64,000 nt of DNA from Sphingomicrobium sp. (GCA_039929125.1 JBDSRV010000073.1:16639-80638); one strand, 5' to 3'. Positions 27,294 through 63,024 are shown, counted from the stretch's first letter. The notes: generated from the sequence alone by a model not told the origin. A program made the numbers and translations.

Positions 27294-27318
27294 GGAACCA
27301 ACCGCGTAGCCCGCCGTT
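27294..27318 (+). promoter_or_regulatory. EcfG/RpoE2/SigT-type general stress promoter
   Basis: Exact GGAAC-N16-CGTT, intergenic, with an AT-rich tract upstream. Confidence 0.7.
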
Positions 27319-27323
27319 ATGTC

Positions 27324-27391
27324 AGCGTGGTTCACTTCTTCGGAAGCGAACCATGGAACCCCGGCAACTTCGGTTGCCGGGGTTTACTTTT
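27324..27391 (+). ncRNA. Candidate ~65-nt small RNA with two C(UUCG)G hairpins
   Basis: Downstream of the promoter motif; hairpin 27327-27354, perfect 12-bp hairpin 27357-27384, then TACTTTT; no credible ORF. Confidence 0.6.
27357..27391 (+). terminator. Intrinsic terminator
   Basis: AACCCCGGCAAC-TTCG-GTTGCCGGGGTT followed by TACTTTT. Confidence 0.75.
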
Positions 27392-31223: not shown

Positions 31224-32012
31224 TTAGTCTTGGCGCGCTGCGAGCGCGGCTTTCATGGCGCCGAGTTCGGCATCGACCGCTTCGGCGGTGCGCAGCTCGG
31301 CGAATTCTTCCTCGAGGCTCTTCGGCGCGGCCAGGCCGAGCGCGTCGGCATGGCCCTCGGCGAGGTCGGCGCGGCGCTCGAGAATCTCGAACCGCGCGAA
31401 CGCTTCCTCGGTGCGGTGGCCGTGGACCAGCTCGCTCGCCTTGGCGCGGCTGATCGCGCTTTCCATCCTCAGTGCGATCGACTGCTGGCGGGCGCGGGCC
31501 TCGGCCAGCTTGGTCTGGAGCCGCTGGATATCGGCCTCGTAACCGCGCAGCACGGCCTCGATCTGCGCCATTTCGGCGTGCAGCCCTTCGGCCAGTTCGA
31601 CGATCTTCTGTTTCTCGCCAAGCGCGGCACGGGCCAGGTCCTCGCGGCCCTTTTCCAGCGCCAGCCCAGCTTTCTCGGCCCAGCCATGCTGCATGTCGTC
31701 GAGCCGGTTGCAGGCGCGGCGCATTTCCTTGATGTCGGCGATCGAGCGGGCGGCGGTGGCGCGCACTTCGACCAACGTCTCTTCCATCTCGACGATGATC
31801 ATCCGGATCATCCGCACCGGGTCTTCCGAGCGGTCGAGCAGATCGGTCATGTTGGCGGCGATGATGTCGCGGGTGCGGGTGAAGATCGGGCCGGACAGCA
31901 GCCCGGCGAGCGGGGCGAAGCGGACCGACGGCGTATCGGCCTCGACCGCTTCGTCGCTCGCCCGGGGCATGCGGACGGGGGCCCGCGCCACGATCGGTTC
32001 AAGCTCAAGCAT
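31224..32012 (-). CDS. pspA: Phage shock protein A (PspA/IM30) with N-terminal extension
   Basis: IFTRTRDIIAAN, EDPVRMIRMIIVEMEE, EDLARAAL, FEILERR, SLEEEFAEL. Confidence 0.9.
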   Translation of the reverse strand: MLELEPIVARAPVRMPRASDEAVEADTPSVRFAPLAGLLSGPIFTRTRDIIAANMTDLLDRSEDPVRMIRMIIVEMEETLVEVRATAARSIADIKEMRRACNRLDDMQHGWAEKAGLALEKGREDLARAALGEKQKIVELAEGLHAEMAQIEAVLRGYEADIQRLQTKLAEARARQQSIALRMESAISRAKASELVHGHRTEEAFARFEILERRADLAEGHADALGLAAPKSLEEEFAELRTAEAVDAELGAMKAALAARQD

Positions 32013-32145
32013 AGGTCACGATTTCCGTCTGCACGGGGGCCGCCGAGACCTGGCTCGGGGCGATGGCCGCACCGACCGCGATCGAGCTCATCAGCAGCGA
32101 CACGAAGGCCGCGAGCAGATGGTTCTGGAACGACTGACCAAACAT
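32005..32145 (-). CDS. Unannotated 46-aa hydrophobic protein at the head of the psp operon
   Basis: MFGQSFQNHLLAAFVSLLMSSIAVGAAIAPSQVSAAPVQTEIVTYA*; RBS GGGAG; stop overlaps the pspA start by 8 nt. Confidence 0.65.
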   Translation of the reverse strand: MFGQSFQNHLLAAFVSLLMSSIAVGAAIAPSQVSAAPVQTEIVTYA

Positions 32146-50037: not shown

Positions 50038-50092
50038 AATGTCCGCTTTAGACCCTTAGCGGCCAGTCCACATCCGACCCAAAGCGGGCATT
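50038..50092. repeat. Left palindromic repeat element (two subunits)
   Basis: AATGTCCGCTTT...AAAGCGGGCATT terminal inverted repeat (11/12); first subunit matches the right element at 23/26. Confidence 0.85.
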
Positions 50093-50126
50093 AGCCGATT
50101 GCTATTGAACGATAGATTCCGCATTA

Positions 50127-50152
50127 GGAAAGCCTCAGGAGCACCCGCCGTT
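50127..50152 (+). promoter_or_regulatory. Possible EcfG-type promoter of the receiver pair
   Basis: GGAAA-N17-CGTT, 28 nt before ATG 50181. Confidence 0.35.
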
Positions 50153-50180
50153 GGTCGGTTCAAGTCAGGGGACGCTTTCA

Positions 50181-50582
50181 ATGAAGCCATGTTCGTCCCT
50201 GCCTGGCAAAAACCCATCCCGCGCATGCATACTGGTTGCTGAGGACGAGCTGCTCCTCCGGATGATGATCAGCGACGAACTTCGCGACGCTGGCTATGAC
50301 GTGATCGAGGCATTCAGCGCTGATGAAGCAGCGGCCATATTGCGATCCGGCGCTCAGGTTGACTTGGTCCTTAGCGATGTTCGTATGCCCGGCTCGCTTG
50401 ACGGCTTGGGCCTTCTTACGATCGTAAAAGGAATGTCCCCCGACCTTCCGGTAATTATTATGTCAGCACATCTCCAGCCAAGCCTCGCTGCGTCGGACGG
50501 CGCAGCACAATTCTTAGCTAAGCCCTTCACGATGAGCCGAGTTGTGGAGGCCGTTGGAACCGAGTTATCGAAGATATCATGA
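50181..50582 (+). CDS. Single-domain response regulator
   Basis: LVAEDE, LSDVRMPG, IMSA, LAKPF; all canonical residues present. Confidence 0.88.
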   Translation: MKPCSSLPGKNPSRACILVAEDELLLRMMISDELRDAGYDVIEAFSADEAAAILRSGAQVDLVLSDVRMPGSLDGLGLLTIVKGMSPDLPVIIMSAHLQPSLAASDGAAQFLAKPFTMSRVVEAVGTELSKIS

Positions 50583-50986
50583 CGGCTGAAATTGCTAGCG
50601 GCAAAGTTGCTTCATCGATCTTAATTGTCGATGGCGACATTATCTCGCGGCATGTCATTGCAGATTACCTAAGGCACTGCGGATACAGCGTCGTGGAGGC
50701 TGCCAACGCAGAGGAAGCCTATGCTGGTTTGCAGGAGCCGACCCTCTCGATCGATGTCATCGTATGCGACGTAGCCGGGCTGGGTCCCAAGACCAGCTTC
50801 GAACTGGCAACCTGGGTACGAGCCAATCGTCCTGAGCTGGAGGTTAAGCTCGCCGGTGGCGTTGAGATGGCTGCTCAAACCGCAGCAGACCTTTGCGAGA
50901 ACGGACCCCGTCTAGCGCGGCCGTATGAACCCGAAGCTGTTATTGATTACATCAAACGATTGCGAGCGAGCCGCGACCGCAGCTGA
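50579..50986 (+). CDS. Atypical single-domain response regulator
   Basis: LIVDGD, VIVCD; LAGG replaces the S/T site and ARPY replaces the KP motif. Confidence 0.78.
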   Translation: MTAEIASGKVASSILIVDGDIISRHVIADYLRHCGYSVVEAANAEEAYAGLQEPTLSIDVIVCDVAGLGPKTSFELATWVRANRPELEVKLAGGVEMAAQTAADLCENGPRLARPYEPEAVIDYIKRLRASRDRS

Positions 50987-51200
50987 CCGGTCACTCCTTA
51001 CGGACCTCTTGTGACCCGCAATACCGTTCACCTCCGGCGATTGAAGAAGCGCTTCGAAAGGCTGCCCGCGATTGCAGCCCAGAGGTGTCATGACCGTTTC
51101 CAGGTTTTCGTTGCTCGTTCCGTTGCCGCGGAAGCACTGGACTCTGGACGGACACGAGGCCAATCTGCGCTTAAGTGATTGACGCAAAAGGATTCGTAGC

Positions 51201-51419
51201 ATGCATAGGTTCCAGCTCAAGTGCCAGGAGTGTGGCAACTCCGACTTCACCCTCCCCCAAGACGGAGCTGAAAGCATGCGGATCATTTGCAATAAATGCG
51301 GGACGTTTTTTGCGACGCTCGGTGAGCTCAGGACTGAAATGTCGGGGCAAGCTGCTGTGACCCGTCAGAGCGACATCGATAGCGCGGCCTGGATGAAGCG
51401 AGCGAGGTCTGGAGAGTAA
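51201..51419 (+). CDS. Small CxxC...CxxC putative zinc-binding protein (72 aa)
   Basis: CQEC and CNKC; AGGA upstream. Confidence 0.6.
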   Translation: MHRFQLKCQECGNSDFTLPQDGAESMRIICNKCGTFFATLGELRTEMSGQAAVTRQSDIDSAAWMKRARSGE

Positions 51420-51597
51420 TCAGGCGCTCCGATATTCCCTCTATCAGAGGGATTCCGCACCTTTCGTATAAACTGCGCACTCGTCAGTCCTTATGCGCCT
51501 ACTCCCCGAAGCCGGCCGTCCGCGGCTGCTAAGTGTTTGTTTCTACTTGCTATTGCGCCGCCACCCTCTACCCCTGTTGCGACAACGGGGAAGCAAA

Positions 51598-51807
51598 ATG
51601 ACATTACAGGAAAGCGTTTGGGCATTTCTTATCCAACGCGCCCCGAGACCTATTTGTGACCTTTGTATCTCTGACTACCTGGCAATAAGTCGCCTTCAGG
51701 TCGTTACAGCCGTCAGGTTCGCACAAAGCCGAGGGGCCGACCGCTTTACCGGACGCTGTTCGGGTTGCTGCACTCACCGGAAGGTGTCGGTGTTGTTTCA
51801 GGGCTGA
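51598..51807 (+). CDS. Small CxxC...CxxC putative zinc-binding protein (69 aa)
   Basis: ICDLC and RCSGCC; GGGGAAG upstream of ATG 51598. Confidence 0.55.
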   Translation: MTLQESVWAFLIQRAPRPICDLCISDYLAISRLQVVTAVRFAQSRGADRFTGRCSGCCTHRKVSVLFQG

Positions 51808-51842
51808 CGAGATTTTGCCGCAGCTCGCCCCGCATCGCGTGC

Positions 51843-51874
51843 GACTGTCCGCTTTCCACCCTTAGCGGACACTC
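51843..51874. repeat. Right palindromic repeat element
   Basis: GACTGTCCGCT-N10-AGCGGACACTC. Confidence 0.85.
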
Positions 51875-54094: not shown

Positions 54095-54796
54095 TCACGC
54101 CCGCCAGTGGATGTCGATCGGCTGGTCGCACTCGGCCAGCAGGCGGCCGATCGGCAGCTTGCTGCTCTGGCCGTCCGCGATCGCCTGTTCGATGGCCTCG
54201 CGCTTCTTCTGCCCGGTGATGGCGATCAGGATCGTCCGCGCCGACAGGATCGCGGCCCGGGTCAGCGTCACGCGCGCCACCGGCGCATTGGCCGGCAGCG
54301 GGTCGGGCATGACGCCGACCGCGCGGCGGGCCTTGGGCGCGTTCATCGCATCCTCAAGGTCGGGCCCGGGGAACAGCGACGCGGTATGCCCGTCCTCGCC
54401 CATGCCGAGCCAGACGAGGTCGGGCGGCCACGGCAGGTCCTGCAGCCGGGCGTCCGCGCCATTGCCCGCCAGCCGGTAATCGGGAATGTCCGCGGCGATC
54501 GGGAAGATCCGCGCACCGGTCTTGATGAAATGGCTGGCGATCAGGCGTATGTTACTGAGTTCGCTATCCATTTTGACCAGCCGGTCGTCGGTCGGGATGA
54601 TCGTCACGCGCTTCCAGTCGAGCTTCATTTGCGCGAGCTTGGCGAAGATCGGCCCCGGCGTTTCGCCGCCCGGCAGCGCGATCAGCGCGGCGCCGCGCGC
54701 CTCGATCGCGCTGTCGACGATGAAGCCGACATCGCCCGCCACCGCGTCCGCCATCTCCTCGGCGCTGTCATAATCCCAAAATTCCGCTTCAATCAT
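54095..54796 (-). CDS. pgl: 6-phosphogluconolactonase
   Basis: LPGGETP, PTDDR, LGMGEDGHTASLFP. Confidence 0.93.
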   Translation of the reverse strand: MIEAEFWDYDSAEEMADAVAGDVGFIVDSAIEARGAALIALPGGETPGPIFAKLAQMKLDWKRVTIIPTDDRLVKMDSELSNIRLIASHFIKTGARIFPIAADIPDYRLAGNGADARLQDLPWPPDLVWLGMGEDGHTASLFPGPDLEDAMNAPKARRAVGVMPDPLPANAPVARVTLTRAAILSARTILIAITGQKKREAIEQAIADGQSSKLPIGRLLAECDQPIDIHWRA

Positions 54797-56246
54797 GCCA
54801 TTCCACTCCGTTGCGCCGGGTCAGCTCCGCGGCCGCCGCGGGCCCCCAGCTGCCGGCGGGATAAGGCAGCGGCGCCGCGCCGGTCTTGGCCCAGGCGGCG
54901 CGCACCCCGTCGATCCATTGCCATTGCGCCTCGACCTCGTCGCGCCGGACGAACAACGTCGGATCGCCCTCGATCAGGTCGAGCAGCAAGCGCTCATAGG
55001 CGATCCGCCGCCGATGATCGGCAAAGGCGTTGGCCAGCCCGATGTCGAGCGGCACTTCACGCAGCCGAATGCCGTCGCGATCGAGGCCGGGCGTCTTGGC
55101 CATCACCCGGAACTCGATATTCTCGTCCGGCTGGATCGAGATGATGAGCTTGTTCGGCGCGGTCTTGGCCCCGCGCTTGGCGAACATCGAATGCGGCACG
55201 CATTTGAACTGGATGTAGATCTCGGTCTGCCGCTCAGGCAGCCGTTTGCCGGTGCGCAGGTAGAAGGGCACGCCGGCCCAGCGCCAATTGTCGACCTCGG
55301 CCTTCAACGCCACGAACGTCTCGGTCGCCGACGGCTGGCCAAGCTCGGTGACGTAGGCGGGGACCTCGCCCTCCTCGGTCTTGCCGGCAGCATATTGCCC
55401 GGCGACATAATGGGTCGGGATCGCCTTGGCGGTCATCGGCTTCAACGATCGCAGCACCTTGACCTTCTCGTCGCGGATTTCGGTAGCGTCGAAGTCGGCC
55501 GGCGGCTCCATCGCCACCAGCGCGAGCAGTTGCAGCATGTGGTTCTGGACCATGTCGCGCAGCGCCCCGGCGCCGTCGTAGTAACCGGTGCGGCCTTCTA
55601 GCCCGACGGTCTCCGCCACGCTGATCTGGACATGGTCGATGTGCGACGCATTCCACAGCGGCTCGAACATCGAATTGGCGAAGCGCAAGGCGAGCAAATT
55701 CTGGACGGTTTCCTTGCCGAGATAATGGTCGATGCGGAACGTCCGCTCCTCGGGAAAGGCGGCGGCGACGGCGTCGTTAATCTCCCGGCTTGAGGCGAGG
55801 TCGCTGCCAAGGGGCTTTTCGAGCGCGAGGCGGACCTTGTCGCCGGTCAGGCCGGCCGACGTCAGCCCGGCGATGGTCGGTTCGAACAGCGATGGCGCGG
55901 TCGACAGGAAGATGGCGACGCCCTTCGCCGGGTTGATCTTGTCGGCCAATTTGGAAAAGCCCGCCGGCTGGGTCGCGTCGAGCGTGACGTAGCTCATCCG
56001 CTCGACGAACGCGGCGGCGACCTTCGCATCGAAGAAGTCGGCGGGGACGTGCTCGCCGAGCGCCTCGAGCGCGCTGGCGCGGTAGCCGGCGTCGTCGAAT
56101 TCGCTGCGCGCCGTCGCGACGATCTTGAGACCGTCAGGCAGCAGCCCGTCGGCGTGGAGCCCGTAGAGCGACGGCAGCAGCATGCGGTGGGCAAGGTCGC
56201 CGGTCGCGCCGAACAACAAAAGGGTCGAGACTTTTTCGCGGATCAT
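54789..56246 (-). CDS. zwf: Glucose-6-phosphate 1-dehydrogenase
   Basis: FGATGDLA, RIDHYLGKETVQN, MVQNH, GVPFYLRTGK, YERL. Confidence 0.96.
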   Translation of the reverse strand: MIREKVSTLLLFGATGDLAHRMLLPSLYGLHADGLLPDGLKIVATARSEFDDAGYRASALEALGEHVPADFFDAKVAAAFVERMSYVTLDATQPAGFSKLADKINPAKGVAIFLSTAPSLFEPTIAGLTSAGLTGDKVRLALEKPLGSDLASSREINDAVAAAFPEERTFRIDHYLGKETVQNLLALRFANSMFEPLWNASHIDHVQISVAETVGLEGRTGYYDGAGALRDMVQNHMLQLLALVAMEPPADFDATEIRDEKVKVLRSLKPMTAKAIPTHYVAGQYAAGKTEEGEVPAYVTELGQPSATETFVALKAEVDNWRWAGVPFYLRTGKRLPERQTEIYIQFKCVPHSMFAKRGAKTAPNKLIISIQPDENIEFRVMAKTPGLDRDGIRLREVPLDIGLANAFADHRRRIAYERLLLDLIEGDPTLFVRRDEVEAQWQWIDGVRAAWAKTGAAPLPYPAGSWGPAAAAELTRRNGVEWHD

Positions 56247-56312
56247 GGGCGCCCTCCTAGCGTGATGAAGCGCGCCGCGCGATGGCCCTGTGCGCCCAAT
56301 TTTCGGCACGGC

Positions 56313-57059
56313 TCAGCGCTCAAACTGCCCGACGTCGCTCTGGACGTAGCCGAACCAGGCGGCGATCGGCTTGCCGCTGGCGTCGGTCGCCGGGCGGAAG
56401 GCGGCGCGTTGCAGGACCAGCGAGCAGGTCCACTGATCGGTCATCGAATCGCCGAACGAGCGCATCACGTCGCACTGGCTGATCCGCCCGTCGGGCTGGA
56501 CTCGGACGCGCACGAAGACGCGCCCGCCGCGCGGCCAATTATGCTGGATCGCGGGCGGATAGTCGCGGTTGGTGATGCCGCGGATCAGCCTGACGCCGGT
56601 TCCACCGCTTCCTCCACCCCCGCTGCCGTTGCCCGAGCCGCCGCTGCCGGTGCCCGTCCCCGCGCCGCCCGCCCCGGTGCCGGGCCCGACGACGTTCGAC
56701 GCGCCCTGGGTCGGCTTCGTGCCGGTGTTGGGGGTCGGCGAGGTGACGATCTTGGGCGGAGTCGGCACGATCCCCCGCGGCTTGGGCCGCATCACCGGGG
56801 TCGCCTTGCTTTCCAGATTCTTGGCCGAAGCGGCGCCCTCCTCCTTCTTCGGCTTCGCCTTCTGCTCCTTGACGACCTCCACCACTGGCGGCGGCGGCGG
56901 GGGCACGGTGATGTCGAAGATCTGAAGGTTGGATTGTGGCGGCGTCAGGTGGAGATTGCCGCTCAGGTTGAGCAAGGCAAGGCCGAGCCCGACGTGGATC
57001 AGGATCACGACAAGGATGGTCGCGGCGCGGTCGCGCGGGCGGATGGCGGGGCGGTACAT
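56313..57059 (-). CDS. tonB: TonB-family energy transducer
   Basis: N-terminal TM with His, Pro/Lys-rich then Gly-rich linker, C-terminal DYP...GRVFVRVRV...FRPA domain. Confidence 0.85.
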   Translation of the reverse strand: MYRPAIRPRDRAATILVVILIHVGLGLALLNLSGNLHLTPPQSNLQIFDITVPPPPPPVVEVVKEQKAKPKKEEGAASAKNLESKATPVMRPKPRGIVPTPPKIVTSPTPNTGTKPTQGASNVVGPGTGAGGAGTGTGSGGSGNGSGGGGSGGTGVRLIRGITNRDYPPAIQHNWPRGGRVFVRVRVQPDGRISQCDVMRSFGDSMTDQWTCSLVLQRAAFRPATDASGKPIAAWFGYVQSDVGQFER

Positions 57060-57069
57060 CGGCCAAGTG

Positions 57070-57096
57070 AACGCTGTTTGGCGTCCCGAAGTTTCC
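57070..57096 (-). promoter_or_regulatory. Possible EcfG-type promoter of tonB
   Basis: GGAAAC-N17-CGTT ending 10 nt before the ATG. Confidence 0.35.
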
Positions 57097-57267
57097 TCGC
57101 CGGAACGAGTTTGACCGGCGAGGATGCCGAGTCGTTTCGGGCAGCACGTCCGCGCACCCCTTGCCATCATCAGGAAATGCGGGGGAAAAGTGGTTAATTT
57201 CGTGTTTAATTTGACTTATATTAAAAATATAGCGAATTTAACGGGCTTCATAGGTGGGGAATTCGAC

Positions 57268-58827
57268 ATGGAAGCTACAGCCTCGAATCAGCGTCGTTAT
57301 CTTGCGTCCGCGGCAATCGTGCTTGCCGTTGCAGCCGGAGCGTACACTATCGGCCGCGTCTATCCGCCGCTCGGGCCGTCCGCAGGGACGATTGCCCCGG
57401 CCGACCGCTACGTCGAGGCGCAGATCGGTGCCGATGATGTCAACCTTGGCGACACGTCGATCCCGCAGCTGATGCAGACCGACGCGTTCGAAGTCATTTC
57501 GAAGAACCCTGATTTCCGCAACATGGCCAATGACCCGGGCTTCTCCGCGCTGTTGGCCAACGGACCGGCGATGGCCGCCATTGCCGCCAACCCCGGTGCA
57601 TTCAGCGCCATCTCAAGGGATCCCAAGGCGTTCGCCGAAATGGCCAGCGTCGCGGCGCTCGCCAAGGCGCGAATGGTCGACATGCAGGCCCAGACCGGGG
57701 CCATGGCATCGGTTATCGCGACCCACGCACAGACCTTCTCCTACATGGCCGACAAGCATCCGCAGGCACTCGCTTCGATGATGGCCAATGCGGCGCAGCT
57801 CGGGGTGATCGCCAAGGATCCCAAAGCCCTCGACACGGGTGCGCTGGCCAGTGCCATCTCCCGCGGCCCGGGCGGCCCACAGGCTGCGCAGCAGCTGATG
57901 GCCGACGCCAACGCTATGCAGCGGCTCAAGGCCGATACCGGGATGCTGGCGTCAATGGCCGACCATGCCGCCGCGTTTAAAGGGATTGCAGGCAATGCTC
58001 AGCTGATGGCCGCGGCTGTCAAGCAAGGTGAAGCAATGAGCCGCATCGGCGTCAGCGGTCAGGCCATGGGCGACCTTGCGTCGCTGATGTCGACCCATGC
58101 CGCCGCACTGAATGCGCTTGGGACCGAGCCCAAGGCGCTGGCCTCAATCGCCCAGCACGCCGCTTTCTACAAAGCGATGACTGAGCACGCCGCGGCGAGC
58201 CAGGCGTTGCTGGCCACCGGCATGGCTGTGAAATGGGCGCGCGATCCGGGCGCCTTCGCCACGAATGCGGCGAACATCCCGCAAATGGCCGCGCATGCCG
58301 CCGACCTCAAGGCGATGGCCGCCGACGCGAGGCTGCAAGCGGCGATGCGATCCGACACCGGCGCCCTCGCGTCGATGGCGGCCAGTGCCCAGTCGCTTCA
58401 AGCGATCGCCAGCAACGCGGCGCTGTTCAATACCGGGATGAGCCAGCGGGCCCTGGCTTCGATTGCGGCCAATTCGTCGATGCGCGTGGTCGGCGCTCGG
58501 CCGATGGACCTGGCAATGGCGGCCCGCGCGGCGATGTCGCTCAACGCCATCTCCAGCGCTGCCAGTCTCGCCGCGAATAGCCAGATCAGCGCCGCTGCGG
58601 CGTCGAAGATCGCGGTCAATTCGCAGGCCTTCGCGCAAATGGCGAATTCGCCCGGCGCGTTCGCCAAGCTTGCGAGCAACGGCTCTGCCATGGCCTCGCT
58701 CGCCGCGAATACCGGGATGATGGCCCGTCTGGCCTCGATCAACGGCGCGATGGCGATGATGAGCAACCCGGCGCTGGCACAGGCGATGCAGCAGATGGCC
58801 GTCACCGGGATACGTTCGCGCGAGTAG
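57268..58827 (+). CDS. Ala/Met-rich decapeptide-repeat protein with N-terminal membrane/signal segment (519 aa)
   Basis: RRYLASAAIVLAVAAGAY segment; ~10-residue periodic repeats; no family recognised. Confidence 0.85.
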   Translation: MEATASNQRRYLASAAIVLAVAAGAYTIGRVYPPLGPSAGTIAPADRYVEAQIGADDVNLGDTSIPQLMQTDAFEVISKNPDFRNMANDPGFSALLANGPAMAAIAANPGAFSAISRDPKAFAEMASVAALAKARMVDMQAQTGAMASVIATHAQTFSYMADKHPQALASMMANAAQLGVIAKDPKALDTGALASAISRGPGGPQAAQQLMADANAMQRLKADTGMLASMADHAAAFKGIAGNAQLMAAAVKQGEAMSRIGVSGQAMGDLASLMSTHAAALNALGTEPKALASIAQHAAFYKAMTEHAAASQALLATGMAVKWARDPGAFATNAANIPQMAAHAADLKAMAADARLQAAMRSDTGALASMAASAQSLQAIASNAALFNTGMSQRALASIAANSSMRVVGARPMDLAMAARAAMSLNAISSAASLAANSQISAAAASKIAVNSQAFAQMANSPGAFAKLASNGSAMASLAANTGMMARLASINGAMAMMSNPALAQAMQQMAVTGIRSRE

Positions 58828-58836
58828 TCGGTAATG

Positions 58837-58858
58837 GGGGCCGCGTCCGCGCGGCCCC
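58837..58858 (+). terminator. Intra-operon hairpin (weak terminator or RNA stabiliser)
   Basis: GGGGCCGCG-TCCG-CGCGGCCCC perfect 9-bp stem followed only by TTAAG. Confidence 0.55.
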
Positions 58859-58875
58859 TTAAGCTTGGGGGGCTG

Positions 58876-61800
58876 ATGAGGAAACCAGTTGTTCGCGGCC
58901 ACGCCGCGACGGCCTGTGCGTTGGGACTCCTGCTTGGCGGCACGTCCAGCCTTGCCTGTGCGCAGACCCAGCCTGCACCGCCGCCGCCCAACCCTTCGAC
59001 CACGATCAGCGAACCGACGCCGGCCCCGGACGAGACGCCGCCCGCGACCACGCCAAATTCCGAGCGCAAGCTGCCCGAACACGTCCCGCAGGACGCGTCG
59101 GGGATCGACCTGTCGACGCTCGAGACCAACGATTTCAAATTGCTCTATTTCGACCCGGTGCAGACCTATCTGACGCCCTATGTCGCCCGGGCGCTGACCA
59201 ATTCGCTGCGGTTTCACGAGGAAAAATTCCATTGGAAGCAGTGGGATCGCTCGACCATCCTGCTCAAGGACTTCGGCGACTATGGCAACGCCGGCGCGCG
59301 CTCGTCGCCCAACAACGCCGTGCTGCTCGACGTCGCGCCGCTCAGCCAGACAATGGAGACGTTCAGCCCGGGCGAACGTTTCTTCACGCTGTCGAACCAC
59401 GAGCTGGCACACGTCGCGACGATGGACGTGTGGAACAACACCGACGCCTTCTGGCGCAGGCTGTTCGCCGGCAAGGTGCAGCCGATCCAGGAACATCCCG
59501 AATCGATCCTCTACAACTTCCTCGTCACCCCGCGGGTCAACGCCCCGCGCTGGCAGCTGGAGGGCACGGCCGTGTTCTTCGAGACGTGGATGGCCGGCGG
59601 GCTCGGACGCGCCCAGGGCGGCTATGACGAGATGGTGTTCCGGGCGATGGTCCGCGACCACGCCAAATTCTACTCGCCGCTGGGCCTCGAATCCGAAGGC
59701 ACGGCGATCGACTTCCAGGTCGGCGTCAACGACTATCTCTATGGCACCCGGTTCGTGTCGTACCTGGCGCTCAAATATGGCCCGGACAAGGTCCTCCAGT
59801 GGCTCCGCCGCGACGAGGATAGTGCCGGCTATTACGCCAGCCAGTTCCACCGCGTGTTCGGGCAGAAGCTCGACCGCAGCTGGGCCGACTGGATCGGCTT
59901 CGAGCACGAGTTCCAGGCGAAGAACCTCGCCGCTTTGAGCCAATATCCGCTGACCGAGGTCCAGCACCTCACCCCACGTGGCCTCGGCTCAGTGTCGCGA
60001 ACCTATTACGACGCCAAGACCAACAGCCTGGTCGGCGCCTTCAAATATCCCGGCGTGATCGCTTATGTCGGCACGCTGTCGCTGGCCGACGGCAAGCTCC
60101 ATCACCTTGCCGACCTCAAGGGTTCGATGCTCTACCGGGTCACCAGCATCGCCTTCGATCCCGACGCGCGCACTGCTTATTACACCGAGGACAACCACGC
60201 CTTCCGCGACCTCGTTGCCCTGAACATCGACACCGGCAAGAAACGCCGCCTGCTGACCGATGCGCGCATCGGCGACCTGGTCATCAACCCGCGCGACAAG
60301 TCGATCTGGGGCATCCGCCACCAGAACGGCTATGCCACCATCGTCCGTATCCCGGCGCCCTATGCCGGGTTCAACCAGATCAATACGTTCGACTATGGCC
60401 AGATCCCGTTCGACCTCGACATTTCGGCCGACGGGTCGATGGTCTCCGCGTCGTTCGGCGAGGTTGACGGCAAGCAATCGGTCCGGGTGTGGCGCGCCGA
60501 TCAGTTCGAGCAAGGCGGCGGGCCCAACGAAATCGCCCGCCTCGACATGCCGCCGTCGACTCCGGAGGGGTTCGTCTTCGCGCCCGACGGCAAGTCGCTG
60601 GTCGGCACCAGCTACTACACCGGCGTGTCCAACGTCTTCCGCTTCGATATCGCCAGCGGGAAATATGAAGCGCTGACCAATGCCTCGACCGGCTTTTTCC
60701 ACCCGATGGTGTGCCCCGACGGCAGCCTGTTCGTCCAGGAATTCACCGGCGAGGGGCTGACGCCGTCGATCATCAAGCCGCAGGTGCGCGAGGATCTAGG
60801 CACCGTCAGCTTCCTCGGCACGCAGGTCATCCACGCCCATCCGGAACTCAAGAGCTGGGGGGTGGGATCGCCGGCCAAGATCGACCTTGAGCCGCTGATC
60901 ACCGCGCGCAGCCACTACAAACCCGGCAAGGAGATGAAGCTGGCCGCCGCCTTCCCGATCGTCGAAGGCTATCTCGGCCGCCCGACGTTCGGCTATTATT
61001 TCCACTTCGAAGACCCGCTGCAATTCCGCCAGCTGAGCGGGTCGTTCAGCGCGTCCCCGTTTGGCCACGGCCGTCTCAGCGACCGGCTCCACGCCGACGT
61101 CGAGTATAAGACGCTCGACTGGAAATTCCGCTATTGGCACAACGACGCCGACATTTACGACCTCGCCGGGCCGATCAAGCGCAGCCGCAAGGGCGACGCG
61201 GTCATCGCCAGCTACAACAAGACCAAGATTTACGATCCCCCGCGCCAGCTCGACGTGTTCGGCAGCGTCGCCGGCTATTTCGGCCTCGAGCAGCTGCCCG
61301 CGGCGCAAAACATCCTCAGCCCGAAGAATATCTTCTCTTCCGAGTTCGGCACCCGTTATACCAACACCGTCAAGTCGCTCGGCGGCGTCGACCATGAGAA
61401 GGGGTTTGCCGCGCGGCTTATCGGCGGGCTCGACTGGGCAGATCGCCATGCCTTCCCGCACCTTTCGGGCGGGGTCGATTATGGCATCCCGCTGCCGATC
61501 GCCAACAGTTCGGCGTGGATTTACGCGCACGGCGGCATCGTCGGCGGCGACCGCAGCAGCCCGCTCGGCGCCTTCTACTTCGGGTCGTTCCGCAACAACT
61601 ATGTCGATAACCGGCCGGAGAAACGCTACCGCGAGCTCGAAAGCTTCCCCGGTTTCGACATCGACCAGATCGTCTCGCGCAAGTTCGCCAAGGTCACCGG
61701 CGAAATCAATTTGCCGCCACTGCGCTTCGCCGAAATTGGCACGCCGGCCTTTTACCTGAGCTATGCGCGCCCGGCCTTGTTCGCCGGGACGATGCTGACC

Positions 61801-61974
61801 CAGTCGCCCGGCCGGCGCAATTACCGCCTGTCCAATATCGGCGCGCAGGTCGACCTGGCGTTCACCGTGGCGCTGCGTCTGCCGATGATCTTCTCATTCG
61901 GGATTGCCAAAGGCTTTGGCGACAAGGATATCGATGGCAACACCGAATTCCTCACGTCGCTCAAAATCATGTAG
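58876..61974 (+). CDS. Outer-membrane protein: zincin-like peptidase + TolB/PD40-like beta-propeller + C-terminal beta-barrel
   Basis: Signal peptide, HELAH plus WQLEGTA, repeated SADG/APDG/CPDG blades, alternating-pattern C-terminal strands. Confidence 0.75.
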   Translation: MRKPVVRGHAATACALGLLLGGTSSLACAQTQPAPPPPNPSTTISEPTPAPDETPPATTPNSERKLPEHVPQDASGIDLSTLETNDFKLLYFDPVQTYLTPYVARALTNSLRFHEEKFHWKQWDRSTILLKDFGDYGNAGARSSPNNAVLLDVAPLSQTMETFSPGERFFTLSNHELAHVATMDVWNNTDAFWRRLFAGKVQPIQEHPESILYNFLVTPRVNAPRWQLEGTAVFFETWMAGGLGRAQGGYDEMVFRAMVRDHAKFYSPLGLESEGTAIDFQVGVNDYLYGTRFVSYLALKYGPDKVLQWLRRDEDSAGYYASQFHRVFGQKLDRSWADWIGFEHEFQAKNLAALSQYPLTEVQHLTPRGLGSVSRTYYDAKTNSLVGAFKYPGVIAYVGTLSLADGKLHHLADLKGSMLYRVTSIAFDPDARTAYYTEDNHAFRDLVALNIDTGKKRRLLTDARIGDLVINPRDKSIWGIRHQNGYATIVRIPAPYAGFNQINTFDYGQIPFDLDISADGSMVSASFGEVDGKQSVRVWRADQFEQGGGPNEIARLDMPPSTPEGFVFAPDGKSLVGTSYYTGVSNVFRFDIASGKYEALTNASTGFFHPMVCPDGSLFVQEFTGEGLTPSIIKPQVREDLGTVSFLGTQVIHAHPELKSWGVGSPAKIDLEPLITARSHYKPGKEMKLAAAFPIVEGYLGRPTFGYYFHFEDPLQFRQLSGSFSASPFGHGRLSDRLHADVEYKTLDWKFRYWHNDADIYDLAGPIKRSRKGDAVIASYNKTKIYDPPRQLDVFGSVAGYFGLEQLPAAQNILSPKNIFSSEFGTRYTNTVKSLGGVDHEKGFAARLIGGLDWADRHAFPHLSGGVDYGIPLPIANSSAWIYAHGGIVGGDRSSPLGAFYFGSFRNNYVDNRPEKRYRELESFPGFDIDQIVSRKFAKVTGEINLPPLRFAEIGTPAFYLSYARPALFAGTMLTQSPGRRNYRLSNIGAQVDLAFTVALRLPMIFSFGIAKGFGDKDIDGNTEFLTSLKIM

Positions 61975-61983
61975 GCAGACGCT

Positions 61984-63024
61984 ATGGCAGTGGCTGAAAT
62001 CCTGAACTGGTCGATCGCGCTCGTCCCGGTGCTGGCAATGGTCGCGTTGTTCGTGTGGCTCGACATCTTCAAGCTGATGAGCCTGAGCGAGCTGCTCGTC
62101 CTGCTGCTCGCGGGTGGCGTCGTCGCCATCATCGCCTACCCCATCAGCGGCCAGCTGATCGACGTCCTGCCGCTCGGCTTTTCCTATTACAGCCGGTTCA
62201 TTGCGCCGTGGATCGAGGAGTCGCTCAAGGCGCTGGCGGTGATCAGCCTCTTCTACTTCAACCGCATCGGCTACAAGCTCGACGCGGTGATCTCCGGCTT
62301 CGCTATCGGCGCCGGCTTCTCGGTGGTCGAAAATATCCTCTATCTGATGCGCTTTCCCGACCTCGCGCCGACGGTGTGGATGGTGCGTGGCCTTGGCACG
62401 GCGTTGATGCACGGCGCGACCTGCGCGACGCTCGCCGCCATCGCCCACGAGCTTGCCGAGCGCGAGAATCGCGAAGCGGCGTCGGACTTCAACTTCAACC
62501 CCTTGTGGGTCGTCCCCGGGCTGATCGTCGCGGCCGCGATCCACACCTTGTTCAACCAGTTCCCCGACCAGCCGATGACCGCCATGCTCGGCGCCCTGGT
62601 CGGCACGCCGTTGCTGTTGATGGGGATCTTCCAGTTCGGGTCGACCGAGGCACGCGGCTGGTTGCTTGAGGAAAGCGCCGACCACCGCGCCGCGCTTGAC
62701 GCGCTCGAAGCCGGGCGCTTCCCCGATACAGCCAGCGGGCGCCGTATCGCGGCGCTGGCCGACCGCGTCGGCGGTGCCCAGGCCGAGCGCATCCGCGACT
62801 ATCTGACCACCGCCATGCGGCTGACCGTCGCCGCGGAGGAGAAACTGCTCGGCAAGCCGGTGCCGCCCAAGGACGAGCTTGAGGCCGCCTTCACCCACCT
62901 CGAGCAGTCGCGCGAGGCGATCGGTCGCACGGGTTTCTCGGCGCTCGAGCCGCTGCTGCCCTTCAGCCGCAACGATTTGTGGGAAGTGAAGGAGCTGCGC
63001 GAGGACTTGCGCAAGGACGGTTAG
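61984..63024 (+). CDS. prsW: PrsW family intramembrane metalloprotease
   Basis: APWIEESLK, GAGFSVVEN, LMHG, IHTLFN motifs; multiple TM helices. Confidence 0.85.
   Translation: MAVAEILNWSIALVPVLAMVALFVWLDIFKLMSLSELLVLLLAGGVVAIIAYPISGQLIDVLPLGFSYYSRFIAPWIEESLKALAVISLFYFNRIGYKLDAVISGFAIGAGFSVVENILYLMRFPDLAPTVWMVRGLGTALMHGATCATLAAIAHELAERENREAASDFNFNPLWVVPGLIVAAAIHTLFNQFPDQPMTAMLGALVGTPLLLMGIFQFGSTEARGWLLEESADHRAALDALEAGRFPDTASGRRIAALADRVGGAQAERIRDYLTTAMRLTVAAEEKLLGKPVPPKDELEAAFTHLEQSREAIGRTGFSALEPLLPFSRNDLWEVKELREDLRKDG

What the first reader, a model, noticed from the sequence alone, without database searches (positions are those of the whole stretch)
57268..63024. Candidate undescribed three-gene envelope system: repeat protein + peptidase/propeller/barrel OM protein + PrsW protease
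Seen: three co-oriented genes with gaps of 48 and 9 nt behind an AT-rich control region. They encode (i) a membrane-anchored or exported Ala/Met repeat protein, (ii) a ~1030-aa protein with HELAH/EG zinc motifs, propeller-like blades and C-terminal barrel-like strands, and (iii) a PrsW-type protease with intact EE, FxxxEN, H and HxxxN motifs. Known: Bacillus PrsW performs site-1 cleavage of the membrane anti-sigma RsiW, and Omp85-like barrels can translocate or assemble proteins. Inference: no ECF sigma or anti-sigma is encoded next to it, so the likely PrsW substrate is gene 1. That suggests a pathway where the inner-membrane protease releases the repeat protein and the OM protein processes, exports or anchors it. 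I recognise no named system with this composition.
Basis: partly seen in the sequence, partly recalled or inferred. Interest (0 to 1): 0.88.

Follow-up and report, generated by a model that had tools for sequence, protein, structure and literature searches.

The report
Sigma-less PrsW / outer-membrane peptidase envelope cassette
Three real, tightly linked genes (a membrane-anchored repeat protein, an outer-membrane zinc peptidase with a propeller and barrel, and a PrsW membrane protease) form a widespread but unstudied envelope proteolysis module; this genome carries a version without the stress sigma factor that sits beside it in other bacteria.

Summary
G1 (57268-58827) is a single-pass protein with a 10-residue Ala/Met helical repeat. 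G2 (58876-61974) has a signal peptide, an HExxH...E peptidase domain, a TolB-like propeller and a 16-strand barrel (AlphaFold2 pLDDT 88). G3 (61984-63024) is a PrsW protease with every catalytic motif intact.

The three genes behave as one unit. In 80 Alpha- and Gammaproteobacterial loci, PrsW follows G2 in 72 of 74 informative cases and a G1-type head precedes it in 62 of 62. Within the genus, G2 and PrsW occur in exactly the same 17 of 25 genomes.

In 19 gammaproteobacterial loci an ECF sigma/anti-sigma pair sits directly upstream. In two lineages the anti-sigma domain is fused in frame to G1. In one distant clade PrsW and G2 form a single ORF.

The module is therefore most likely a trans-envelope regulated-proteolysis device with G1 as the PrsW substrate. 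This genome has no cognate anti-sigma, so its output is unknown.

G2's architecture was catalogued in 2014 as the "WD40-like Omp85" subfamily, which remains uncharacterised. I found no paper describing the cassette. The mechanism is inferred, not shown.

The parts
57190..57267 (+). AT-rich upstream region with a TTGACT -35-like box (57211-57216) and a Shine-Dalgarno sequence AGGTGGGG (57252-57259)
   Evidence: GC is 27.9% over 57190-57250, against 67.3% for the window. An ATTGAC(T) box at the same place occurs upstream of G1 in most alphaproteobacterial loci, often followed by GGTTAA. The consensus promoter scan did not call it.
57268..58827 (+). G1: 519-aa type-II single-pass membrane protein with a periplasmic Ala/Met helical-repeat rod
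   Evidence: AlphaFold2 gives pLDDT 72.6 and a solenoid of about 45 short helices. No PDB fold analogue reaches E < 0.1. No Pfam or NCBIfam family matches.
57298..57354 (+). G1 transmembrane anchor (residues 11-29), preceded by RR
   Evidence: Hydropathy scan. It is modelled as a helix spanning residues 5-28.
57355..57552 (+). G1 conserved juxtamembrane head (residues 30-95), including G40-T-I-A-P44 (57385-57399), R47-Y48 and LMQTDAF
   Evidence: G29, P33, G40, T41, R47, Q52, D57, V58, L60, L68-Q70 and D72-F74 are invariant in alignment A2. This is the only part of G1 that tblastn finds in gammaproteobacterial loci. The motif occurs once in the whole genome.
57490..58812 (+). G1 repeat rod: about 44 units of a 10-residue helix-turn repeat. 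Relatives have [ND][PA]QAFxA[LM]AR; Gammaproteobacteria have SDAFRQALA.
58876..61974 (+). G2: 1032-aa outer-membrane protein with peptidase, propeller and barrel domains
   Evidence: The family has at least 5300 clusters at 90% identity and 2503 representatives at 50% identity.
58876..59106 (+). G2 signal peptide (MRKPVVRGHAATACALGLLLGGTSSLACA|Q) followed by a Pro-rich disordered linker
   Evidence: Sequence. pLDDT is below 50 for residues 21-75. Relatives align only from about residue 70 onward.
59107..59940 (+). G2 zinc-peptidase domain (residues 78-355), with HELAH at 59398-59412 and E229 at 59560-59562
   Evidence: Motif conservation. Peptidase_MA_2 (PF13485) matches relatives below threshold, best E = 1.7e-5.
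59953..60795 (+). G2 TolB-like beta-propeller (residues 360-640, about 6 blades)
   Evidence: Foldseek matches TolB at E = 3e-9. A profile search against PDB sequences finds TolB and Atu1656. PD40 repeats are found in 13 of 29 relatives.
60904..61971 (+). G2 C-terminal 16-strand beta-barrel with a long loop between strands 11 and 12 (FYFGSFRNNYVD...RYRE...FPG)
   Evidence: Weak, co-linear Omp85_2 matches occur in relatives. hhalign against BamA/TamA barrels aligns only the L6 region, P = 0.044.
61984..63024 (+). G3: 346-aa PrsW-family intramembrane protease (core residues 1-220) with a conserved helical C-terminal domain (221-346) that is inferred to be cytoplasmic
   Evidence: It is the only PrsW in the genome. 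In the P0146 fusion the C-domain is followed by an internal signal peptide, which places the C-domain in the cytoplasm.

Best explanation
The three genes are the core of a widespread, experimentally uncharacterised trans-envelope proteolysis module. This genome carries it in a form without a sigma factor.

Proposed working:
- G1 is anchored in the inner membrane with its N-terminus inside. Its 10-residue-repeat helical rod extends into the periplasm.
- G2 sits in the outer membrane through its 16-strand barrel. Its TolB-like propeller and HExxH...E zinc peptidase face the periplasm, where they bind and trim G1's rod.
- PrsW (G3) then cuts G1 near the conserved juxtamembrane GT(I/V)AP-RY head.

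In gammaproteobacterial relatives the same trio is wired to an ECF sigma factor. There, either a separate anti-sigma with a similar juxtamembrane motif or G1 itself carrying an anti-sigma domain would be destroyed, releasing the sigma factor. In this sphingomonad G1 has only a 10-residue cytoplasmic tail and no cognate anti-sigma exists. The output here is therefore turnover or shedding of G1, or an unknown signal through PrsW's conserved cytoplasmic domain, and not sigma activation.

Shown: gene content, domain architecture, intact catalytic motifs, strict co-occurrence, the linkage to sigma/anti-sigma genes and the gene fusions.

Inferred: the topology of G2's N-terminal domains, which protease cuts what, the order of cuts, the stimulus and the output.
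For: Module status:
- The order G1-G2-G3 is conserved in 10 of 10 loci from the genus and across 80 Alpha- and Gammaproteobacterial loci.
- PrsW lies next to G2 in 72 of 74 informative loci, and a G1 head lies upstream in 62 of 62.
- Within the genus, G2 and PF13367 are present in the same 17 genomes and absent from the same 8, three of which are at least 96% complete.
- The genome has a single PrsW.
- The same arrangement holds where G2 identity falls to 33-35%, in low-GC metagenome contigs L101 and L103.

Fusions:
- P0146 is one 1365-aa ORF, seen in two samples. It consists of a PrsW core, its C-domain, an internal signal peptide and a G2-type protein.
- In L067, L066 and L082 an anti-sigma N-domain is in frame with the G1 TM segment and head, directly after the ECF sigma gene. 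There are no stops. The reading frame survives a 26-codon indel at 46% identity between L067 and L082.

Link to ECF sigma:
- 19 gammaproteobacterial loci carry an ECF sigma plus an anti-sigma, with overlapping stop and start codons running into G1 (for example L084). Many also carry GAF-SpoIIE, HATPase_c_2 and STAS genes.
- The anti-sigma and G1 share a juxtamembrane GT[IVM][AV]P motif.

Catalytic competence:
- The PrsW motifs are invariant in 61 of 61 homologues.
- HExxH...E is at least 90% conserved in G2 relatives.

Precedents:
- PrsW is the site-1 protease for the anti-sigma RsiW (quoted).
- PlpD, an Omp85 protein with an enzyme N-domain, keeps that domain in the periplasm.
Against: - There is no experimental evidence for any member of the family.
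- The own genome has no homologue of the gammaproteobacterial anti-sigma, STAS or PP2C genes. None of its four ECF sigma loci looks cognate. The signalling reading therefore cannot apply here as it stands.
- The shared GT[IVM][AV]P motif is short. The Steroidobacteraceae anti-sigmas lack it.
- The anti-sigma::G1 fusion was found in only two lineages, and in 1 of 81 genomes of one family.
- Several distant G2-like proteins (27-37% identity) have no PrsW next to them.
- The periplasmic location of G2's peptidase and propeller rests on analogy, not on a test.
- The genome is a MAG, 90.6% complete, so a missing partner gene cannot be fully excluded.
Confidence: 0.45

Rival explanations
1. Periplasmic protein quality control without signalling. 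G2 would be an outer-membrane-tethered, propeller-gated oligopeptidase (tricorn/F3-like logic) that degrades misfolded envelope proteins. G1 would be its adaptor, inhibitor or substrate-holding rod. PrsW would only adjust G1 levels or clear membrane stubs. The sigma factor in Gammaproteobacteria would merely switch the operon on under stress.
For: - The sigma-less trio is maintained, and gained or lost, as a unit in Alphaproteobacteria.
- A conserved sigma-70-like TTGACT box lies upstream of G1.
- Relatives give faint Tricorn_2nd hits. Heinz & Lithgow's best peptidase template for this architecture is tricorn-interacting factor F3.
- G1 gives weak STI1/HOP DP-domain-like matches, E = 0.03. STI1-type domains are Met-rich binders of hydrophobic clients (own knowledge).
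Against: - This reading does not explain why an anti-sigma domain is fused to G1.
- It does not explain why the anti-sigma shares G1's juxtamembrane motif.
- The STI1 match is far below threshold.
Confidence: 0.2
2. PrsW would release G1 from the inner membrane, and G2's Omp85-like barrel would translocate it to, or anchor it at, the cell surface, as in two-partner secretion.
For: - The 16-strand barrel is Omp85-like.
- Genes for an Omp85-type transporter and its cargo are typically adjacent, as in TpsA/TpsB (own knowledge).
- PrsW domains have been proposed to release exported cargo in polymorphic toxin systems.
Against: - There is no POTRA domain in G2 and no TPS domain in G1.
- The canonical L6 VRGF/Y motif is absent.
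- G1 is a signal-anchor protein, and its most conserved part is the membrane-proximal head, not a secretion domain.
- The PlpD precedent argues against translocation by such barrels.
- The conserved zinc site in G2 is unnecessary for a pure translocator.
Confidence: 0.1
3. A TAM-like outer-membrane biogenesis or lipid-handling machine. G1 would be a periplasm-spanning hydrophobic bridge (like TamB) docking onto an Omp85-family partner (like TamA). PrsW would serve as an assembly or turnover factor.
For: - An inner-membrane-anchored partner is encoded next to an Omp85-like barrel, as with tamA-tamB (text).
- G1 is rich in Ala, Met, Phe and Leu.
Against: - G1 is an alpha-solenoid, not a beta-taco groove.
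- There is no POTRA domain for docking.
- The genome already has BamA and TamA.
- The cassette is dispensable in 8 of 25 genomes of the genus.
- Linkage to an ECF sigma and the presence of two proteases point to proteolysis.
Confidence: 0.08
4. The three genes are neighbours by chance and have unrelated functions.
For: None beyond the lack of experimental data.
Against: - Co-occurrence is 72 of 74 and 62 of 62 across two classes.
- Phyletic match within the genus is perfect.
- Two kinds of gene fusion exist.
- Intergenic gaps are short or overlapping.
Confidence: 0.02

Closest known systems
Bacillus subtilis sigma-W / RsiW / PrsW / RasP regulated intramembrane proteolysis
   Same: - G3 is a PrsW-family protease with all four motifs.
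- In gammaproteobacterial relatives the operon begins with an ECF sigma and a single-pass anti-sigma.
- A type-II single-pass protein with a conserved extracytoplasmic juxtamembrane segment is the natural substrate.
- A second, extracytoplasmic peptidase activity that trims the site-1 product is known for RsiW (own knowledge, Heinrich et al. 2009; not checked here).
   Different: - This window and genome have no sigma or anti-sigma partner.
- An outer-membrane Omp85-like zinc peptidase and a long repeat rod are obligatory partners here. The Bacillus system has neither.
- G3 carries an extra conserved cytoplasmic domain of about 125 aa.
'WD40-like' Omp85 subfamily (Heinz & Lithgow 2014, PMC4104836)
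   Same: The three-part architecture matches. Their Table S3 lists, for each member, a BamA/TamA barrel template, a TolB propeller template and an M1-type aminopeptidase template. The subfamily was still called uncharacterised in 2024.
   Different: - Their members were collected through PF01103. G2 does not match PF01103 or PF19143 at E <= 1, so it is at best a divergent branch.
- That paper discusses a BamA-BamB-like role. It does not mention the PrsW or repeat-protein neighbours.
PlpD, the patatin-like Omp85 protein (Hanson et al. 2024, PMC11116518)
   Same: An enzyme domain is attached N-terminally to a 16-strand Omp85-type barrel. In PlpD the enzyme domain was shown to stay in the periplasm, and that is the topology assumed here for G2.
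   Different: PlpD has a POTRA domain, is a lipase, forms homodimers, and has no PrsW or repeat-protein partner.
Cell-surface signalling, FecA-FecR-FecI type (own knowledge)
   Same: It is a trans-envelope route in which an outer-membrane protein passes information to a single-pass inner-membrane anti-sigma. That anti-sigma is then proteolysed to free an ECF sigma.
   Different: The outer-membrane partner there is a TonB-dependent transducer, not an Omp85-like peptidase. Site-1 cleavage is not by PrsW. There is no repeat rod.
PrsW-dependent release of fused cargo in polymorphic toxin systems (Zhang et al. 2012, PMC3482391)
   Same: A PrsW domain lies N-terminal to an exported domain in a single polypeptide. 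The 1365-aa PrsW::G2 ORF P0146 has that polarity.
   Different: - The cargo here is an outer-membrane peptidase, not a toxin.
- The fusion contains an ordinary internal signal peptide that signal peptidase could cut.
- In the window the two proteins are separate genes.

Membership tests
PrsW family (PF13367) | Profile match above the curated cut-off | tested here: met
   73.2 bits against a cut-off of 23.5, E = 2.6e-20. The six-frame genome search gives 74.6 bits.
PrsW family (PF13367) | Four catalytic motifs: EExxK, FxxxE, H and HxxxN | tested here: met
   E78, E79, K82, F112, E116, H143, H187 and N191 are invariant in 61 of 61 homologues.
PrsW family (PF13367) | Site-1 cleavage of a membrane anti-sigma factor | not testable with these tools
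   This window and genome have no anti-sigma partner. Relatives have one.
Omp85 superfamily | [quoted passage not shown] | tested here: met
   The AlphaFold2 model has 16 long strands over residues 688-1031, with pLDDT mostly above 90.
Omp85 superfamily | Sequence match to PF01103 or PF19143 | tested here: inconclusive
   - The window protein gives no hit at E <= 1.
- Relatives hit Omp85_2 below threshold (E = 0.001-0.003), co-linear with the profile.
- hhalign against 30 BamA/TamA barrels gives P = 0.044 over the L6 region only.
- An earlier 95% probability was a self-hit artefact.
- UniRef names a 72%-identical relative "Bacterial surface antigen (D15)".
Omp85 superfamily | [quoted passage not shown] | tested here: not met
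   No POTRA domain appears in Pfam results or in the model. The propeller runs directly into the barrel.
Omp85 superfamily | L6 loop with a (V/I)RG(F/Y) motif between strands 11 and 12 | tested here: inconclusive
   A long loop is present at the right place (residues 890-935). It carries the conserved sequence FYFGGFGNNYVD...RYRE..FPG, not VRGF/Y.
'WD40-like' Omp85 subfamily | M1-like peptidase, TolB-like propeller and barrel in one chain | tested here: met
   compared with Table S3 of PMC4104836. Direct sequence relatedness to the listed UniProt members was not tested.
Gluzincin / Peptidase_MA clan | HExxH plus a downstream Glu as the third zinc ligand | tested here: met
   HELAH lies at 175-179 and E229 in RWQLEG, each at least 90% conserved. 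PF13485 matches only relatives and only below threshold. The fold of this domain was not searched on its own.
ECF sigma / anti-sigma regulated-proteolysis cassette | ECF sigma and a membrane anti-sigma encoded with the proteases | tested here: not met
   - Both are absent from the window.
- The genome has no homologue of the relatives' anti-sigma and no second copy of the G1 head motif.
- Both are present in 19 gammaproteobacterial loci.
Two-partner secretion (type Vb) and type Vd | POTRA-bearing TpsB-type barrel plus a TPS domain on the cargo | tested here: not met
   G2 has no POTRA domain. G1 has no TPS domain or any Pfam domain.
TamA/TamB translocation and assembly module | POTRA-bearing TamA and a DUF490 beta-taco TamB | tested here: not met
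   G1 is all-alpha. A canonical TamA is encoded elsewhere in the genome.

The most novel reading that the evidence does not exclude
The trio would be a self-contained trans-envelope "fuse" in which the Omp85-type barrel is neither an insertase nor a translocase. The barrel would instead be the outer-membrane end of a sensing device. G1's length-variable repeat rod would bridge the periplasm and be consumed by the barrel-tethered peptidase when the outer membrane or the periplasmic spacing is disturbed, which would license PrsW to cut.

The sigma-less sphingomonad form would then show that the core has an output of its own, for example through PrsW's conserved cytoplasmic domain or through the released rod. 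ECF sigma control would be an add-on in other lineages.
Probability: 0.25. Interest if true: 0.85.

Novelty: new variant of a known kind. Interest (0 to 1): 0.7.

Why it matters
- Non-canonical Omp85 proteins (metalloprotease, WD40-like and patatin-like) are a recognised open question in outer-membrane biology.
- PrsW has no established role in Proteobacteria.
- This cassette links the two and gives each a testable partner. Its fusions to an anti-sigma domain and to PrsW point to a specific substrate, G1.
- If the model holds, it would be a new way of passing envelope information across both membranes. The family is large: at least 583 species genomes in one scan.
- The sigma-less version in this window is the minimal form. 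Isolates such as Sphingomonas edaphi DAC4, Sphingomonas chungangi and Croceicoccus ponticola GM-16 carry the same form, so ordinary genetics is possible.

Tried and rejected
1. Whole-model Foldseek of G2 returned only propeller matches. The peptidase and barrel domains could not be searched on their own.
2. hhalign of the G2 barrel against single BamA or TamA sequences gave nothing.
3. hhalign against a 31-sequence alignment gave 95-98% probability. That was an artefact: locus L097 contributed G2's own barrel to the alignment. Without it, P = 0.044. I report the corrected value.
4. Profile and sequence searches against PDB found only TolB-type propellers for G2 and nothing for G1.
5. Foldseek of the G1 model gave no hit at E < 0.1. 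The top row, the umbrella-toxin UmbC ALF-repeat protein at E = 0.12, is not significant.
6. PADLOC gave no defence-system match.
7. A search of the own genome for the gammaproteobacterial anti-sigma, STAS and PP2C genes found none. The best ECF sigma (32% identity) sits beside unrelated genes.
9. A search for more anti-sigma::G1 fusions in the family of L067's genome found only that genome among 81.
11. The GC-rich hairpin between G1 and G2 is not better than shuffled sequence, z = -1.6.
12. Literature searches for PrsW with Omp85, propeller or ECF context found no description of the cassette.

Full report
**1. What is there**

The window is high-GC (67%) DNA from a Sphingomicrobium/Sphingomonas-like MAG of 1.98 Mb, 90.6% complete. 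Three co-oriented + strand ORFs lie at 57268-58827 (G1, 519 aa), 58876-61974 (G2, 1032 aa) and 61984-63024 (G3, 346 aa). The gaps between them are 48 nt and 9 nt. They follow a 60-nt stretch of 28% GC.

G1 starts with MEATASNQRRY. It has one hydrophobic segment (residues 11-29) and is 28% Ala and 7.5% Met. Identity autocorrelation peaks at lags 10 and 20. The DNA itself is not tandemly repeated.

G2 has a good signal peptide, a Pro-rich linker, HELAH at residues 175-179 and a conserved E229. AlphaFold2 with a 29-sequence alignment gives pLDDT 88.3 and pTM 0.85. The model shows an alpha/beta domain (78-355), a propeller of about six blades (360-635) and 16 long strands (688-1031), with a long loop between strands 11 and 12. 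Its best PDB matches are TolB, E = 3e-9.

G3 matches PF13367 (PrsW) at E = 2.6e-20. Its EExxK, FxxxE, H and HxxxN residues are invariant in 61 homologues.

**2. The three genes are one unit**

G2's family is large: at least 5300 clusters at 90% identity, all unnamed or "hypothetical", and 2503 representatives at 50% identity. A scan of one genome per species found it in at least 583 species. The best 80 loci are Alphaproteobacteria (Sphingomonadaceae, Caulobacteraceae/Terricaulis, Hyphomonadaceae, Micropepsaceae/Rhizomicrobium, Parvularculaceae) and Gammaproteobacteria (Steroidobacteraceae, Woeseiaceae, Lysobacterales, Rhodanobacteraceae, Wenzhouxiangellaceae).

- Among loci with enough flanking DNA, a PrsW gene lies next to G2 in 72 of 74, and a G1-type head lies upstream in 62 of 62.
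- In Steroidobacteraceae, where G3 first seemed to be missing, a divergent 568-aa PrsW lies on the opposite strand.
- No fourth gene is conserved across all loci.
- Within the genus, G2 is present in 17 of 25 genomes and PF13367 in exactly the same 17. The 8 genomes lacking one lack both, including three that are 96-100% complete.
- G3 is the only PrsW in this genome.

**3. Distant relatives and a PrsW::G2 fusion**

I looked up contigs for 50%-cluster representatives.
- At 43% identity (L099), G2 is followed by PrsW.
- At 33% (L101, 41% GC) and 35% (L103, 31% GC), a single-pass protein with a G1-like head (TM, then SGNIGKA.. or VGSIGGAERAERYR) precedes G2, and PrsW follows it.
- In P0146 (34% identity, seen in two samples) a single 1365-aa ORF contains the PrsW core, its C-terminal domain, an internal signal peptide (..KKAWWNILPLFLLFFLSATPSKA|QK..) and the G2 body. 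It is preceded by a G1-like gene. This places PrsW's C-domain in the cytoplasm and is a Rosetta-stone link between G3 and G2.
- Four other distant G2-like proteins (27-37% identity) have no PrsW next to them. The association therefore characterises a large clade, not every protein with this architecture.
- I did not establish the phyla of these metagenome contigs.

**4. Link to ECF sigma factors**

In 19 gammaproteobacterial loci an ECF sigma gene and a gene for a single-pass anti-sigma-like protein accompany the cassette. I call that protein c7; it has an N-terminal anti-sigma-type helical domain, one TM segment and a periplasmic domain of about 140 aa. In most of these loci the pair lies immediately upstream of G1. 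In L084 the stop and start codons overlap along sigma / c7 / G1, and G2 and G3 follow closely. In Steroidobacteraceae the pair lies just downstream. Many of these loci also carry GAF-SpoIIE (PP2C), HATPase_c_2 (RsbW-like) and STAS genes.

Two further observations tie G1 itself to this signalling.
- c7 carries LVGTMAP about 16 residues after its TM segment. G1 carries AGT(I/V)AP-x-RY about 10 residues after its own. G40 and T41 are invariant and P44 nearly so.
- In L067 (Lysobacterales), L066 (Arenimonas, cut by the contig end) and L082, c7's own TM and periplasmic domain are absent. The anti-sigma N-domain there is in the same reading frame as G1's TM segment and head, with no stop. L067 and L082 are 46% identical over this ORF, and the frame survives a 26-codon indel. 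In those bacteria G1 appears to be the anti-sigma factor. The fusion is rare: only 1 of 81 genomes in L067's family carries it.

**5. This genome lacks the sigma part**

- No homologue of c7, the STAS protein or the PP2C phosphatase is found in the genome.
- The four ECF sigma genes include a PhyR-linked EcfG type and others next to unrelated genes.
- The G1 head motif occurs only once in the genome.
- G1's cytoplasmic tail is 10 residues long and so cannot hold a sigma factor.
- Upstream of G1, most alphaproteobacterial loci share an ATTGAC(T) box, often followed by GGTTAA. This looks like a sigma-70-type -35 element with a possible operator, not an ECF promoter. It is a consensus-level observation only.

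**6. G1 structure**

Relatives show a far more regular repeat than the window's copy: about 40 units of [ND][PA]QAFxA[LM]AR in Alphaproteobacteria and SDAFRQALA in Gammaproteobacteria. AlphaFold2 (pLDDT 72.6) models about 45 short helices, one per repeat, with a few longer ones. The TM segment and head are modelled with low confidence. No PDB fold analogue reaches E < 0.1. In distant clades the head is conserved while the rod is replaced by non-repetitive helical sequence. The head is therefore the constant functional element and the rod is a variable one.

**7. Comparison with what is known**

- PrsW is the site-1 protease of the B. subtilis anti-sigma RsiW (quoted).
- Heinz & Lithgow (2014) defined a "WD40-like" Omp85 subfamily. 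Their Table S3 lists a BamA/TamA barrel, a TolB propeller and an M1-aminopeptidase template for each member, which is the same architecture as G2.
- Hanson et al. (2024) still list that subfamily as uncharacterised. They also show that PlpD's enzyme domain is periplasmic.
- Membership of G2 in Omp85 proper remains inconclusive. It has 16 strands and an L6-like loop. It has no POTRA domain, no PF01103 hit and no VRGF/Y motif. Omp85_2 matches are found only below threshold in relatives, and hhalign gives P = 0.044. A 95% hhalign probability obtained earlier was a self-hit and is withdrawn.
- Full-text searches found no paper describing the PrsW / Omp85-peptidase / repeat-protein cassette or its ECF context.
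- Notes from this scan (AI notes, used as leads only) describe the same cassette in at least 14 other genomes, mostly behind sigma/anti-sigma pairs. I reached the same reading from my own data before seeing them.

**8. Mechanism**

The best-supported reading (confidence 0.45) is a trans-envelope regulated-proteolysis module with G1 as the common substrate. G2's periplasmic propeller and peptidase would engage and trim the rod, and PrsW would cut near the conserved head. Where G1 or its neighbour carries an anti-sigma domain, this would free an ECF sigma factor. In this genome the transcriptional output is missing, so the trio acts autonomously.

- Shown: architecture, intact active sites, co-occurrence, fusions and sigma linkage.
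- Inferred: G2 topology, which protease cuts what, the order of cuts, the stimulus and the output.
- Rivals: quality-control protease without signalling (0.20), export or anchoring of G1 (0.10), a TAM-like machine (0.08) and chance neighbours (0.02).

**9. Verdict**

The finding is real and the cassette is strongly conserved. Its parts belong to known families, but I found no description of the combination. I rate it a new variant of a known kind (regulated envelope proteolysis), with interest 0.70. The window's particular value is that it holds the minimal, sigma-less form, which cultured sphingomonads share.

Noticed in passing
window 56313-57170 (-): A 285-aa protein with a TonB_C domain (E = 4.4e-8) is transcribed divergently from the same AT-rich region as G1. 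zwf (54789-56309) and pgl (54095-54796) lie behind it, and an HPPD-type dioxygenase starts 46 nt after G3 (63071 onward). None of these is conserved next to the cassette in other families.
   Followed up: partly
window 58836-58859: A perfect 10-bp GC hairpin (GGGGCCGCGU..GCGCGGCCCC) lies between the G1 stop and the G2 start, with no T-run after it. Its folding energy is not better than shuffled sequence, z = -1.6. It could still lower G2 and G3 expression relative to G1.
   Followed up: partly
upstream of G1 in L012-L019, L027 and others; window 57193-57216: A conserved ATTGACT box is followed by GGTTAA(T/C), palindromic GGTTAACC in L027, inside the presumed promoter spacer. It may be an operator for an unknown regulator. 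In the window and in L028, GGTTAAT lies upstream of the TTGACT box instead.
   Followed up: no
L054, L058, L072, L073 (Steroidobacteraceae): A variant cassette: the PrsW is 568 aa with a long N-terminal extension and lies on the opposite strand. The ECF sigma and anti-sigma pair lies downstream of it, and the anti-sigmas lack the GTMAP motif.
   Followed up: partly
L103:1912-4941: A low-GC (31%) contig carries two paralogous G1-like genes (315 aa each) with a lipocalin-like lipoprotein gene between them, upstream of G2 and PrsW. rpoD and dnaG lie just upstream.
   Followed up: no
P0155, P0166 (G2 relatives of about 1210-1226 aa): These have an N-terminal extension of about 280 aa before the peptidase domain, with a weak AMIN-domain match (E = 0.002). 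It is not a PrsW domain.
   Followed up: no
G3 residues 221-346 (window 62644-63021): A helical cytoplasmic C-terminal domain (LLE.I.SG.F....G.Y.....F.P) is conserved from sphingomonads to low-GC clades. It has no Pfam family. The only match is a weak one to ATP synthase subunit B, probably a coiled-coil effect.
   Followed up: partly
window 50038-51874, 27294-27391, 32005-32145: Other first-stage notes exist for this window: a cassette bounded by palindromic repeats, an sRNA candidate and a small ORF before pspA. I did not examine them.
   Followed up: no
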